Assembly (NCBI GenBank): GCA_019233825.1
Contig: JAFAMB010000026.1
Coordinates: 1 to 39,769, forward strand
Origin: Verrucomicrobiota bacterium
GTDB taxonomy: Bacteria; Verrucomicrobiota; Verrucomicrobiia; Chthoniobacterales; JAFAMB01
DNA length: 39,769 bases
Direction: 5' to 3'
Part shown: positions 26,269 through 28,275 of the stretch, one piece after another
Layout of the letters: every line of letters begins with the position of its first letter
How positions within the stretch are numbered: the stretch's first letter is position 1
Notes under the pieces: model-generated
The model's input: only the letters and a program-made list of their open reading frames with translations
Told to the model about the DNA's origin: nothing
Databases searched by the model: none
Position numbers and translations under genes: made by a program

Positions 26269-26783
26269 GTGGCGGGCGATCGCTGGCTTGACACCCGTTT
26301 TGCCAGAGGAAAGTCCGAACACCGGAAGGCGGCATGCCTCGTGAAATCGAGGGCGCTCGAGATGCAAATCCCGGGCGACGGAGAGTGTCACAGAAAATAC
26401 ACCGCCCAGCACTACCTTCGCGCCATTGAATGGACCGGGAGGGCACTCGAGTCAAAATGGCGCAAAGGTGGTGCTGGGTAAGGGTGAAAAGGCGGGGTAA
26501 GAGCCCACCGGACCTTCGCGTAAGCGTAGCCGCACGAAAAACCCCATGTGGTGCAAGACAAAGCAGAGGGAGGGTTGCCTGCCCCTTCTCCTGCGAGTGC
26601 GGGAGGAAACCCTCGGGTCATAGTCGCACCCAGCACCACCCAGCCCCATTTTCAGATCCGGCAGTAAGACCCGCCGAGGTCGGACCTGAAAGTGGGGCTG
26701 GGTGGTGCTGGGCACTTGGGAAACCGAGTGAGATAAATGATCGCCATCTCGCGAAAGCGAGAACAGAATTCGGCTTATGCCAC
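26269..26783 (+). ncRNA. rnpB: RNase P RNA, bacterial type A, with inserted helices
   Basis: conserved GAGGAAAGUCC, ACAGAAA, GGGUGAAA, GGUAAGAGC, AGAUAAAUGA, ACAGAAUUCGGCUUA; P1 GUGGC/GCCAC, P2 GGCGAUC/GAUCGCC, P18 CACUUGG-GAAA-CCGAGUG, P19 UCUCGC-GAAA-GCGAGA. Confidence 0.96.
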
Positions 26784-26822
26784 AAAAGCGAGGCCCGTCC
26801 GGACTTCCCGAAACGGGCCTCG
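26784..26822 (-). terminator. terminator hairpin between convergent rnpB and phhB
   Basis: perfect 10-bp stem CGAGGCCCGT/ACGGGCCTCG, followed by CTTTT on the minus strand. Confidence 0.7.
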
Positions 26823-26828
26823 ACCGCT

Positions 26829-27110
26829 TCAGGCTAGCTTATCAATCTTTGTGGCCAGCATGAAATCCAGATCGGTCAACCCCCCCGCGGAATGCGTGGA
26901 TAACACCAGTTTTACCTTGTTCCATCGGATGTCGATGTCCGGGTGATGGTTCATTCCCTCGGCTTCCTTCGCCAGTCTGTTTACGAATTCAATCGCGGGT
27001 TGGAACCCGTCGAATTCGAAGGTGCGTTCGATATTGTTGTCGCCGAGCTTCCATTTTGGGACTTCGTCTAACAGCACCTGAACTGTCTCTGGCTTTAACA
27101 ACTCCGCCAT
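26829..27110 (-). CDS. phhB: pterin-4-alpha-carbinolamine dehydratase
   Basis: start reassigned to MAELLKPE; AEGMNHHPDI, LSTHSAGGLTDLD. Confidence 0.93.
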   Translation of the reverse strand: MAELLKPETVQVLLDEVPKWKLGDNNIERTFEFDGFQPAIEFVNRLAKEAEGMNHHPDIDIRWNKVKLVLSTHSAGGLTDLDFMLATKIDKLA

Positions 27111-27300
27111 TGGCTTTCCTTTCTCGTTTTCATTCGATTCAGGCTCCCTCCTGAGATACCCTCTTAACAGCTTGGCATGATTGGAGGGGCGTTGCTTGCA
27201 ACCCCTTCTCATCGTACGGAATCGTTCGCGACTTGAATGGTTCTCCGGTTTGCGTATGTAACCAGTTCCCGCCTGTCCCTTAAACATAACCCCATAGGCA

Positions 27301-28275
27301 ATGCAAACGAACGGTAAACTATTTAACAATATAGTCGAGACGGTAGGTCGCACTCCTCTGGTCAAGCTGAATCGCATCACCAGAGACGTCGAAGCCACGA
27401 TCGCGATCAAGTGCGAATTCTTTAATCCACTCGGCAGTGTGAAGGACAGGATTGGCATGTCCATGATCGAAGCAGCTGAACAAGAGGGCATCATTAATCT
27501 CGATACCGTGATCGTCGAGCCCACCAGCGGAAACACCGGGATTGCCCTGGCGTTTGTCTGTGCCGCGAAGGGATACAAGCTGATTTTGACGATGCCTGAA
27601 ACGATGAGTCTGGAACGGCGCACGCTGCTGGCCATGCTGGGTGCCAAATTGATTCTCACACCGGGATCCGAAGGCATGAAAGGCGCTATTGCTCGAGCGG
27701 AGGAACTTCTGAAAACGACTCCGAACGCCTGGATGCCTCAGCAGTTCAACAATCCTGCCAACCCTGCGATCCATCAAAAAACGACCGCTGAAGAGATTTG
27801 GGCTGATACTGACGGGCAAGTCGACATTCTTGTTTCAGCCGTTGGAACGGGCGGAACGATCACCGGCGTCGCCGAAGTCATCAAAGAGCGGAAGCCGGCC
27901 TTCAAAGCAATCGCGGTTGAGCCGAAAGATTCGGCCGTGATTCTACAAACCTTGCGGGGCGAACCGTTGAAGCCTGGTCCGCACAAGATTCAGGGAACCG
28001 GAGCCGGCTTTGTTCCGAACAATCTGCATCTGAAAATTGTCGACGAGGTCATCACGGTTTCCAACGAAGATGCGTTGAACATGGCTCGACGTTTGGCCAA
28101 AGAAGAAGGCATCCTGGCAGGAATCAGTTCCGGAGCGAACGTTCATGCGGCGCTCCAAGTAGCCAACCGTCCGGAAAACAAAGGTAAACTCATCGTGACA
28201 GTCGCATGCTCGACCGGTGAACGCTACCTCAGCACCGCGCTCGCTGACGAAGCCAGAGCCGAGGTCGGCGGTTAG
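27301..28275 (+). CDS. cysK: cysteine synthase A
   Basis: [11 protein letters not shown] (PLP Lys), [35 protein letters not shown]. Confidence 0.97.

What the first reader, a model, noticed from the sequence alone, without database searches (positions are those of the whole stretch)
26405..26712. RNase P RNA with two long inserted hairpins sharing 12-bp termini
Seen: P12 is a 74-nt hairpin (26405-26478, ~23-bp stem) and an 84-nt hairpin (26629-26712, ~34-bp stem) sits between P15 and P18, where type A RNAs usually have only a short linker. Both begin CCCAGCAC(T/C)ACC and end GGTGGTGCTGGG but have unrelated interiors. Inference: the same miniature inverted-repeat element inserted twice at tolerated positions of an essential ribozyme, or one helix was copied from the other. 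The shared arms also allow cross-pairing (26467-78 with 26629-40; 26405-16 with 26701-12), which would be an alternative fold joining the S and C domains. The long stems could also be RNase III-excised intervening sequences.
Basis: partly seen in the sequence, partly recalled or inferred. Interest (0 to 1): 0.76.

Follow-up and report, generated by a model that had tools for sequence, protein, structure and literature searches.

The report
RNase P RNA with twin-based expansion helices
This soil bacterium's essential tRNA-processing ribozyme carries two long outer hairpins built on the same 10-base stem unit, and related bacteria hold the same hairpin cassette at either of the two positions, so these dispensable arms are copied and swapped inside one gene instead of arriving as a roaming element.

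Summary
Window 26269-26787 (+) is a 519-nt type A RNase P RNA gene (Rfam RF00010, 168.5 bits). It has a 74-nt P12 hairpin and an 84-nt hairpin directly before P18, and both have the same 12-nt termini.

The second hairpin is not an insertion into a bare linker. All 18 congeners with rnpB carry a hairpin there, as do 9 of 9 readable RNAs from other families of the order (Chthoniobacterales, by relatives' record titles).

The shared termini are one copy of a 10-nt stem unit, YCCAGCNCCA / TGGNGCTGGR. It occurs 1-4 times in tandem on both arms of both helices in this sub-lineage.

The hairpin-2 interior belongs to a cassette family found at that site in 10 related rnpBs and in P12 in 6, out of 35 compared. 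Some of these rnpBs have 363/363 identical cores. One relative has 60/65-identical hairpins at both sites.

I found no copy outside rnpB in the window's own genome, in 18 congeners, or in a scan of 185,579 species genomes, so a mobile element (MITE) is not supported. The cross-paired fold costs about 18 kcal/mol. Excision by RNase III is untested.

Best reading: these are tolerated expansion helices that evolve by intragenic copying, replacement and deletion. This is a new variant of a known kind, of moderate interest.

The parts
26269..26787 (+). rnpB, type A RNase P RNA, 519 nt
   Evidence: cmscan RF00010, 168.5 bits, model positions 1-367. The only copy found in the genome. rnpA is present elsewhere in the genome.
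26405..26478 (+). Helix P12 (specificity domain), 74-nt expanded hairpin
   Evidence: Aligned to P12 of the Rfam model. Folds at -48.5 kcal/mol, z -8.9. Its interior matches only P12 of G018 and L172.
26405..26416 (+). 5' terminus of P12 (one stem unit CCCAGCACTA plus CC)
26467..26478 (+). 3' terminus of P12 (GG plus stem unit TGGTGCTGGG)
26557..26559 (+). P15 5' strand (GAC)
   Evidence: Read from the sequence and from conservation of GCAAGAC...TAGTCGCA in all order-level rnpBs. This assignment is inferred.
26623..26628 (+). P15 3' strand (GUC) plus the GCA linker before hairpin 2
   Evidence: inferred, as above. The L15 GGU lies at 26616-26618.
26629..26712 (+). Hairpin 2: expanded form of the clade-standard extra helix between P15 and P18, 84 nt
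   Evidence: Folds at -68 kcal/mol, z -10.3, with a 27-bp uninterrupted lower stem. A hairpin sits at this site in all 18 congeners with rnpB and in 9 of 9 readable order-level RNAs.
26629..26648 (+). Two tandem 10-nt stem units on the 5' arm (CCCAGCACCA, CCCAGCCCCA)
   Evidence: (family D3).
26649..26692 (+). Interior of hairpin 2, a diverged member of cassette family Y
   Evidence: Alignment A1. Interior-only scores are 25-34 against shuffle maxima of 18-24, versus hairpin 2 of G018 and L172 and P12 of G015, L157, L179 and L182.
26693..26712 (+). Two tandem 10-nt stem units on the 3' arm (TGGGGCTGGG, TGGTGCTGGG)
   Evidence: (family D1).
26713..26730 (+). P18 with a GAAA loop, directly abutting hairpin 2
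   Evidence: cmscan alignment, fold, conserved in the genus.
26747..26762 (+). P19-position hairpin (UCUCGC GAAA GCGAGA)
   Evidence: Fold.

Best explanation
The interval lies inside the single rnpB gene. Hairpin 1 is helix P12. Hairpin 2 is an enlarged version of an extra helix that the sampled Chthoniobacterales carry between the 3' strand of P15 and P18.

In this sub-lineage the lower stems of both helices are built from one 10-nt unit (YCCAGCNCCA paired with UGGNGCUGGR, about one helical turn). The unit occurs 1-4 times in tandem, usually symmetrically on both arms. The window has one unit in P12 and two in hairpin 2, which is why the 12 terminal bases coincide.

Above the units sit interchangeable apical cassettes. 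The cassette in the window's hairpin 2 (family Y) occupies the same site in some relatives and P12 in others.

Inferred mechanism: these are tolerated peripheral rods of the ribozyme. They evolve at the DNA level by three routes:
- non-reciprocal copying between the two sites, by gene conversion or template switching primed by the shared arms;
- whole-cassette replacement between strains;
- change in unit number, and deletion.

They are not needed for catalysis. They are not a dispersed mobile element, and they do not form a functional cross-domain pairing.

Shown: the anatomy, the homology across sites, the absence elsewhere in the genomes searched, and the length polymorphism on identical cores. 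Inferred: the copying mechanism and dispensability.
For: **Identity and structure**
- Gene identity.
- Both hairpins form in the full-length fold.

**The hairpin-2 site is native**
- In 12 of the 18 genus rnpBs the site holds a 19-21-nt hairpin; in 6, including the window, it is expanded to 68-91 nt.
- A hairpin precedes P18 in 9 of 9 order-level RNAs whose region could be read. 3 of 12 failed my anchors.

**Stem-unit counts**
- Counts per arm range from 0 to 4 in 17 sub-lineage rnpBs.
- L182 P12 has 4+4 units. L166 P12 has three units on the 5' arm, of which only one scored on the 3' arm, and no apical cassette.

**Cross-site homology**
- 18 Y hairpins from both sites align over their full length.
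- Interior-only local scores beat every one of 300 shuffles for hairpin 2 of 10 rnpBs and P12 of 6 rnpBs, out of 35 compared. Two rnpBs have Y at both sites.
- L166 hairpin 2 against L179 P12 is 78/89 identical, while their cores are 360/362 identical.
- L073 P12 against its own hairpin 2 is 60/65 identical.
- The window's hairpin 2 hits P12 of G015 at E = 5.6e-8.

**Replacement, not drift**
- L164, L167 and L182 have 363/363 identical cores.
- Between them the hairpins are either (near-)identical or unrelated: hairpin 2 of L167 and L182 is 71/71, P12 of L164 and L167 is 68/70, while other pairs carry different cassettes.

**Dispensability in nature**
- In the genus-level set P12 ranges from 10 to 187 nt and hairpin 2 from 11 to 91 nt, on 360-371-nt cores.

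**Private to rnpB**
- blastn of both hairpins against the window's own genome gives only 12-16-nt chance matches.
- In the 18 congeners only rnpB loci are significant.
- The tandem unit pattern occurs only inside rnpB.
- A 27-nt degenerate pattern found 2 loci among 185,579 species genomes.

**DNA-level signature**
- The hairpins fold equally well on both strands.
- Sense G-U pairs number 102 and antisense 90 over 40 hairpins.
Against: - The window's own hairpin-2 interior is only weakly above shuffles when the stem units are removed: 25-34 against maxima of 18-24. Its family membership therefore rests partly on the chain through closer relatives.
- The window's P12 interior has no detectable relative at the other site. 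My first impression of a reciprocal swap with G015 failed: score 20, reached by 3 of 200 shuffles.
- There is no excess of within-genome over between-genome similarity of the two helix bases, p = 0.71. Ongoing concerted evolution is not shown.
- Even the short hairpins of the sister group start CCCGGCAY, so part of the resemblance is old.
- The copying mechanism is inferred. No intermediate or event was observed.
- The G-U / A-C symmetry test uses MFE folds made separately for each strand, which is crude.
- Most sequences are MAG or metagenome contigs. The window's genome is 71% complete, so copies elsewhere could be unassembled.
- Seven of 23 consensus pairs show two-sided changes. That would also fit selection on the RNA helix.
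Confidence: 0.62

Rival explanations
1. The two hairpins are two insertions of one dispersed miniature inverted-repeat or palindromic element whose terminal repeats are the 12-nt termini.
For: - The termini are identical and inverted, and the interiors differ, as in some non-autonomous elements.
- Earlier notes of this scan report dispersed hairpin repeats in P3/P12 of RNase P RNA in other phyla (unchecked here).
- In the sister group of this genus, a genome-wide heptamer repeat does build P12.
Against: - The 12-mer occurs 5 times in the window's 1.88-Mb genome. Four are in rnpB; the fifth (C40:64-75) was printed but not folded or placed.
- Neither hairpin has another copy in the window's genome or in 18 congeners.
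- The marginal extra hits that I inspected (G001:C9, G001:C2, two in G018:C78, G016:C44) do not fold as hairpins of this kind and lie in stretches with open frames.
- The tandem unit occurs only in rnpB.
- The 27-nt pattern found only 2 loci in the 185,579-species genome collection.
- No direct repeat flanks either hairpin (sequence).
- Both sites hold a native helix in every relative.
Confidence: 0.05
2. The long perfect duplexes are processing sites. RNase III or another RNase removes the distal parts after transcription, so the mature RNase P RNA is fragmented, as for rRNA intervening sequences. This could be true in addition to the main explanation.
For: - Hairpin 2 has a 27-bp uninterrupted stem.
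- The genome encodes RNase III: TIGR02191, 237.8 bits.
- Precedent: the P12 expansion segment of Thermodesulfatator indicus P RNA is excised in vivo and in E. coli (PMC9945441; abstract and passages read).
Against: - No RNA evidence is available. The one RNA run laid carried only conserved core pieces of other organisms.
- The T. indicus cleavage region is A/U-rich (PMC9945441), unlike these G+C-rich stems.
Confidence: 0.25
3. The shared termini exist to allow an alternative fold. The 3' arm of P12 pairs with the 5' arm of hairpin 2, and the 5' arm of P12 with the 3' arm of hairpin 2, linking the S and C domains as a switch.
For: The complementarity is real: 13/13 and 12/13 (pairs I3 and I4).
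Against: - The best structure with both cross-helices enforced is -245.6 against the -263.5 kcal/mol MFE. Pair probabilities are about 0 for the cross pairs and 0.99-1.0 for the local pairs.
- Cross pairs would be pseudoknotted with P5 and P7-P11, whose 5' strands lie upstream of P12 (topology, inferred).
- Relatives with a 10-16-nt P12 or an 11-nt hairpin 2 cannot form it.
- Any two hairpins with the same stem unit have this complementarity as a by-product.
Confidence: 0.02
4. The helices are selected functional modules, for example a docking platform for a clade-specific protein that recognises the 10-bp unit, or a folding or stability aid. This would explain why the same unit and cassette work at either site.
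For: - The unit sequence is kept at both sites across the sub-lineage, at about 17/20 between any P12 and any hairpin 2.
- Family Y keeps a common rod-like apical pattern.
- Seven of 23 pairs show two-sided changes.
- Replacing the long P12 of T. indicus impaired complementation (PMC9945441).
Against: - Natural variants with near-identical cores lack one or the other extension.
- The window's own cassette has lost 8 nt of the apical stem relative to its family.
- There is no strand bias of G-U over A-C.
- The hairpins diverge about three times faster than the core between G000 and G018: 15-17% against 5%.
Confidence: 0.1

Closest known systems
Bacterial type A RNase P RNA (Rfam RF00010; E. coli M1 RNA, Thermotoga maritima P RNA)
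   Same: Full-length match to the family model, with the P4 strands, P12, P13/P14, P15-P17 and a P18 with a GNRA loop.
   Different: It is 519 nt against a 367-position model. P12 is 74 nt. An 84-nt helix replaces the roughly 7-nt J15/18 linker of the consensus.
STRR heptamer repeats inside P12 of rnpB in heterocyst-forming cyanobacteria (Vioque 1997, Nucleic Acids Res 25:3471). I saw only the title, in a reference list; the content is recalled and the paper is not held.
   Same: - Short tandem repeats lengthen a dispensable helix of RNase P RNA symmetrically, with strain-to-strain variation.
- The sister group of this genus shows the same pattern with (CAGTTGY)n heptamers that are also dispersed in its genomes.
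   Different: - In the window the unit is 10 nt, with only 1-2 copies.
- It is found only in rnpB.
- It builds two different helices.
- It carries exchangeable apical cassettes.
P12 expansion segment of Thermodesulfatator indicus P RNA, and the P16.1/P18.1/P19 expansion elements of Methylacidiphilum infernorum (Verrucomicrobia) P RNA (PMC9945441; abstract and passages read, figures not held)
   Same: - Lineage-specific expansion elements in type A RNAs.
- An extra helix next to P18 in a member of the same phylum.
- A long P12 that tolerates, or undergoes, excision.
   Different: - I could not verify whether P18.1 lies 5' or 3' of P18. The figure and supplement were not readable.
- No sequence sharing between helices is described in the passages I read.
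P15.1 of type B RNase P RNA (Bacillus). The nomenclature is recalled; PMC12974513 calls it P18.0 and describes its contact with P5.1 (passages read).
   Same: The same topological position: a hairpin between P15 and P18.
   Different: - Here P16, P17 and the P6 region are retained, so the RNA is type A.
- There is no P5.1 partner.
- Length varies from 11 to 91 nt within one genus.
Dispersed hairpin repeats or IVS-like palindromes occupying P3/P12 of RNase P RNA in other phyla
   Same: Long palindromic rods at the tips of peripheral helices. In some of those cases two helices of one RNA are near-identical.
   Different: Those elements were reported at other loci as well (rRNA, intergenic DNA). 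Here I found no copy outside rnpB.

Membership tests
Bacterial RNase P RNA, type A (RF00010) | Covariance-model score above the curated gathering score over the full model | tested here: met
   168.5 bits against 100, model positions 1-367, E = 8.2e-53.
Bacterial RNase P RNA, type A (RF00010) | Conserved P4 strands (GAGGAAAGUCC ... ACAGAAnnCGGCUUA), and P18 with a GNRA loop | tested here: met
   Both strands align with high posterior probability. P18 is 26713-26730 with a GAAA loop.
Bacterial RNase P RNA, type A (RF00010) | Partner protein RnpA encoded in the genome | tested here: met
   PF00825, 93.8 bits, at G000:C31:25374-25697.
Bacterial RNase P RNA, type A (RF00010) | Catalytic activity on pre-tRNA | not testable with these tools
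   Needs a cleavage assay or complementation.
STRR-type repeat expansion of P12 (cyanobacterial precedent) | Helix lengthened by short tandem repeats on both arms | tested here: met
   10-nt units: 1+1 in P12 and 2+2 in hairpin 2 of the window; up to 4+4 in L182.
STRR-type repeat expansion of P12 (cyanobacterial precedent) | The same repeats are dispersed through the genome | tested here: not met
   The tandem decamer pattern occurs only inside rnpB in 3 of 19 genus genomes and nowhere else. The heptamers of the sister group are dispersed, at 16-45 matches per genome with controls of 0-2.
MITE / dispersed palindromic repeat (REP-, RPE- or Correia-like) | Multiple copies at unrelated loci | tested here: not met
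   Caveat: the window's genome is 71% complete.
MITE / dispersed palindromic repeat (REP-, RPE- or Correia-like) | Target-site duplication, or an empty site in relatives | tested here: not met
   The flanks are CCG|...|TAAGG and GCA|...|CAC, with no direct repeat. Relatives have a native shorter helix at both sites, not an empty site.
Excised intervening sequence / fragmented P RNA (rRNA IVS; T. indicus P12) | Long helical extension at the tip of a conserved helix | tested here: met
Excised intervening sequence / fragmented P RNA (rRNA IVS; T. indicus P12) | Post-transcriptional removal, with the mature RNA in pieces | not testable with these tools
   No RNA reads of this organism were available. 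Run X15 held only conserved cores of other organisms.
Verrucomicrobial P18.1 expansion element (M. infernorum) | Extra hairpin adjacent to P18 in a type A RNA of the phylum | tested here: inconclusive
   The hairpin directly 5' of P18 is present in all genus and order samples that could be read. The exact position of the published P18.1 could not be read: text only, and the supplement was not searchable.

The most novel reading that the evidence does not exclude
An rnpB-private, self-copying palindromic module. Two peripheral helices of an essential ribozyme share a 10-bp unit that serves as microhomology for hairpin-templated copying. Whole expansion cassettes then hop between the S-domain helix P12 and a C-domain helix, and are reassorted among strains. 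The long perfect duplexes are also cut out in vivo, giving an RNase P RNA assembled from two or three pieces.
Probability: 0.15. Interest if true: 0.7.

Novelty: new variant of a known kind. Interest (0 to 1): 0.5.

Why it matters
Expansion segments of structured RNAs are usually described as slow, site-specific accretions, or as landings of dispersed repeats. Here one genus shows 10-187-nt and 11-91-nt length ranges at two helices of RNase P RNA on nearly invariant cores. The same cassette appears at either helix, and there is no source copy elsewhere in the genomes searched.

That would be a natural series of helix-swap and helix-deletion variants. It could be used to test three things:
- what P12 and the P15/P18 junction tolerate;
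- how palindromic DNA is copied between nearby sites;
- whether long duplexes in P RNA are processed.

Practically, the Rfam model mis-aligns the P15 3' strand into the second hairpin, so annotators of such genes should expect this.

Tried and rejected
**A reciprocal swap between the window and G015.** I first thought P12 matched G015's hairpin 2 and the reverse. The hairpin 2 to P12 direction holds. The window's P12 against G015's hairpin 2 does not: score 20, reached by 3 of 200 shuffles, and no hit in the interior-only test.

**Ongoing concerted evolution of the two helix bases.** Within-genome identity is 16.8/20 and between-genome 16.9/20, p = 0.71. Rejected as a general process.

**RNA-strand-specific selection.** Sense G-U 102 against antisense 90. 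No signal.

**Zero-length branches for G000 and G018 in the core tree.** These suggested identical cores. Direct alignment gives 343/360, so I do not use that tree feature.

**RNA evidence for fragmentation.** Six RNA runs were listed, with shares of 0.06-0.08. The one I laid (X15) covers only conserved core bins, and its joints at P12 carry other organisms' P12 sequences. It says nothing about this RNA.

**First genome-contig scan.** The 14-base pattern hit 120 or more mostly unrelated loci. It was useful only for the record titles of a few relatives.

**Anchoring the P15-P18 region in 30 phylum-level loci by regular expressions.** This failed for most, so I make no claim beyond the order, apart from one class-level example seen in that output.

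**Assembly artefact.** I considered whether an assembler could swap interiors between the two sites through the shared arms. By eye, the shared exact runs are 8-19 nt in the contigs concerned (read from the sequences, not computed). That is shorter than the usual smallest k of 21, which I recall. Independent assemblies agree: G015 and L179; L163 and L164 for X; L167 and L182 for hairpin 2. Rejected.

**Double-inversion swap via the inverted termini.** This would reverse-complement the interiors, but cassette Y has the same orientation at both sites. Rejected.

**Literature.**
- Searches for 'RNase P RNA' + P12 + 'tandemly repeated', + Verrucomicrobia, + STRR, + P15/P18/'extra helix', and rnpB + Chthoniobacter (0 papers) found no description of these helices in the held library.
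- Vioque 1997 is not held.
- The supplement of PMC9945441 could not be searched.
- Butler and Fuerst 2004 and Haas and Brown 1998 were not seen.
Full report
**1. What is there**

Rfam's bacterial type A RNase P model matches window 26269-26787 on the + strand over its whole length: 168.5 bits against a gathering score of 100. It is the only RNA family hit in the window.

The gene lies between the divergently oriented rpsL-rpsG-fusA genes and, on the - strand, a pterin-4a-carbinolamine dehydratase gene. The genome also encodes the protein subunit RnpA.

- The 12-mer CCCAGCACYACC occurs at 26405 (+), 26467 (-), 26629 (+) and 26701 (-). Expected by chance: 0.18 per window.
- The arms are 23 nt (91% complementary) and 32 nt (94% complementary).
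- The hairpins fold at -48.5 and -68.0 kcal/mol, with z scores of -8.9 and -10.3.
- Both persist in the MFE and centroid structures of the 519-nt RNA.
- Their interiors are unrelated.

Contigs from two studies cover each hairpin completely with 0-2 differences, so the duplicated arms are not an assembly accident. Two of the three DNA runs may be the source sample.

**2. Placing the hairpins in the RNase P fold**

Hairpin 1 is P12.

Hairpin 2 starts three bases after the 3' strand of P15 (GUC, 26623-26625) and ends directly at P18 (26713-30, GAAA loop). The Rfam alignment hides this region as a 136-nt insert and mis-assigns the P15 3' strand into the hairpin. My P15 assignment rests on the conserved GCAAGAC...TAGTCGCA frame in relatives and is inferred.

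The consensus type A RNA has about 7 nt here. Relatives do not.
- All 18 genus genomes with an rnpB hit (of 19) have a hairpin at this site.
- In 12 of them it is 19-21 nt (for example CCCGGCAT-loop-ATGCCGGG). In 6, including the window, it is 68-91 nt.
- In other families of the order a hairpin precedes P18 in 9 of 9 RNAs whose region I could read. 3 of 12 failed my anchors.

By the record titles of relatives, the clade is Chthoniobacterales, Verrucomicrobiota. A paper on another verrucomicrobium lists 'P16.1, P18.1 and P19 expansion elements' and calls P18.1 rare in type A RNAs (PMC9945441, passages). I could not see the figure, so I cannot say whether it is the same helix.

**3. Why the termini coincide**

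I compared 35 non-duplicate rnpBs: 18 genus genomes, one further genome, and 16 of the 19 complete metagenome rnpBs, with three exact duplicates dropped.

The lower stems of both helices in the window's sub-lineage are made of one 10-nt unit, YCCAGCNCCA, paired with TGGNGCTGGR. The unit is repeated 0-4 times per arm.
- The window has 1+1 in P12 and 2+2 in hairpin 2.
- L182 has 4+4 in P12.
- P12 of L166 has three units on the 5' arm, of which only one scored on the 3' arm, and no apical cassette.

The unit CCCAGCACCA / TGGTGCTGGG is also the base of P12 in the sister group of the genus. The short hairpin 2 of that group is a near-palindrome of a similar unit. Part of the resemblance is therefore old.

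Across the sub-lineage, any P12 base and any hairpin-2 base share about 17 of 20 positions. There is no excess within genomes (16.8 against 16.9, p = 0.71).

**4. Cassettes at either site**

Above the units sit apical cassettes. Eighteen hairpins of family Y, taken from both sites, align over their full length.

With the units stripped, two Y queries beat all 300 shuffles in hairpin 2 of 10 rnpBs (G000, G001, G007, G018, L162, L166, L167, L172, L173, L182) and in P12 of 6 (G015, L157, L164, L167, L179, L182). L167 and L182 have Y at both sites. One borderline hit, in an rnpB of another genus (L176), is disregarded.

Strong cross-site pairs:

| Pair | Identity | Core identity |
|---|---|---|
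| L166 hairpin 2 vs L179 P12 | 78/89 | 360/362 |
| L173 hairpin 2 vs G015 P12 | 74/84 | 355/362 |
| G001 hairpin 2 vs L179 P12 | 78/88 | not computed |
| L073 P12 vs its own hairpin 2 | 60/65 | same gene |

The window's hairpin 2 hits P12 of G015 in a genome search at E = 5.6e-8. Without its units, however, it is only weakly above shuffles (25-34 against 18-24), and it lacks 8 nt of the family's apical stem.

Family X occurs only at the hairpin-2 site (4 rnpBs) and family Z only in P12 (2). The window's P12 interior is shared only with G018 and L172.

**5. Tempo**

L164, L167 and L182 have 363/363 identical cores. Yet L164 carries X and L167 carries Y in hairpin 2, and L182 has a 130-nt P12 against 71 nt in L167. 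Meanwhile hairpin 2 of L167 and L182 is 71/71 identical, and P12 of L164 and L167 is 68/70. That is replacement of whole cassettes, not drift.

Between the window and its nearest genome (G018), identities are:
- core: 343/360;
- P12: 62/73;
- hairpin 2: 70/84;
- flanking DNA: about 90%.

In the genus-level set, P12 ranges from 10 to 187 nt and hairpin 2 from 11 to 91 nt, on cores of 360-371 nt. This is natural evidence that the extensions are dispensable (inferred).

**6. Not a dispersed element**

- The 12-mer occurs five times in the window's genome (1.88 Mb, 71% complete). Four are in rnpB; the fifth, at C40:64-75, was printed but not analysed further.
- blastn of both hairpins against that genome gives only 12-16-nt matches.
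- In the other 18 genus genomes only rnpB loci are significant.
- The marginal hits that I inspected do not fold as hairpins of this kind and lie in stretches with open frames.
- The tandem unit is found only inside rnpB.
- A 27-nt pattern from the 3' arm finds 2 loci in the 185,579-species collection.

The long P12 helices of the sister group are different. They are built of (CAGTTGY)n heptamers that occur 16-45 times per genome in 7 genomes (controls 0-2), and not at all in the window's sub-lineage. This closely parallels the cyanobacterial STRR case (title seen; content recalled).

**7. Mechanism**

Shown: two native helices, a shared stem unit in variable copy number, one cassette family at both sites in the same orientation, whole-cassette replacement on identical cores, and no source copy elsewhere in the genomes searched.

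Inferred: non-reciprocal copying between the two sites, 224 nt apart in direct orientation. The shared arms would act as short homology, by gene conversion or template switching at palindromes. Crossovers would delete P13-P17 and be lethal, so only conversions would survive. Added to this are exchange of alleles between strains through the invariant core, and slippage or deletion within the palindromes.

A DNA-level process fits two facts. The hairpins fold equally well on either strand. Transitions giving G-U on the RNA strand are no commoner than those giving A-C (102 against 90). That test is crude. Two-sided changes at 7 of 23 pairs fit either level.

**8.

The cross-pairing is an automatic by-product of the shared units. 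Enforcing it costs 17.9 kcal/mol, and its ensemble probability is about 0. It would also cross the P5 and P7-P11 pairs.

Excision by RNase III is open. Hairpin 2 offers 27 uninterrupted base pairs, an rnc gene is present, and a P12 expansion segment is excised in Thermodesulfatator indicus (PMC9945441). No RNA data for this organism exist in what I could lay.

**9. Verdict**

Known kinds cover the parts: expansion segments, repeat-built P12, and extra helices in PVC bacteria. What I did not find described is the combination of one rnpB-private unit building two helices in different domains, with cassettes that change site. This rests on searches of the held library. Several older RNase P papers were not available to me.

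Earlier notes of this scan report look-alike P3/P12 rods in other phyla that belong to dispersed repeats (unchecked). This case differs in having no dispersed copies.

Noticed in passing
Relatives: P12 of G004, G006, G010, G011, G013 (loci L019, L029, L031, L033, L026), and genome-wide in G004, G006, G010, G011, G013, G014, G016: In the sister group of the genus, P12 (up to 187 nt) is built from tandem heptamers (CAGTTGY)n with the complement on the other arm. The same heptamer arrays occur 16-45 times per genome (reversed-pattern controls 0-2). There are none in the window's sub-lineage. This is a verrucomicrobial parallel to cyanobacterial STRR repeats.
   Followed up: partly
L073:358-855: This relative's rnpB has nearly the same 65-nt hairpin (60/65 identical) at both P12 and the helix before P18, with a base variant (CCCCGCACCA) of its own. 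It is the clearest recent copy between the two sites.
   Followed up: partly
L164, L167, L182 (metagenome contigs): Three rnpBs have 363/363 identical cores but different combinations of P12 and hairpin-2 alleles. This looks like reassortment among co-occurring strains.
   Followed up: partly
window 26269-26787, cmscan alignment: The Rfam model aligns the P15 3' strand to UGGU inside the 3' arm of hairpin 2 and hides 136 nt as an insert. Automatic structure annotation of this clade's rnpB will be wrong in the P15-P18 region.
   Followed up: partly
window 26829-27677 (-) and 27301-28275 (+): The 282-aa ORF downstream of rnpB has its Pterin_4a domain only at residues 193-281, and its upstream part overlaps a PALP-domain gene on the other strand. 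The real dehydratase gene is probably much shorter.
   Followed up: no
window 26789-26822: A 10-bp perfect inverted repeat (CGAGGCCCGT / ACGGGCCTCG) lies directly after the rnpB 3' end, with no T run. It may be a 3'-end or processing hairpin. No sigma-70-like promoter was found upstream by the simple scan.
   Followed up: no
G018:C78 (two sites) and G001:C2 (loci L216, L217): A 24-nt near-match to the 5' arm of the window's P12 lies in a repeated stretch of these congeners, with open frames across it. It does not fold as a hairpin of this kind, and I take it as a chance resemblance.
   Followed up: yes
Read laying, run X5 record 26 (window 26454-26744): A contig from an independent rhizosphere study carries a variant of hairpin 2 with 23 substitutions and 8 indel positions relative to the window, next to another contig identical to the window. 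Related strains with different hairpin-2 alleles co-occur.
   Followed up: no
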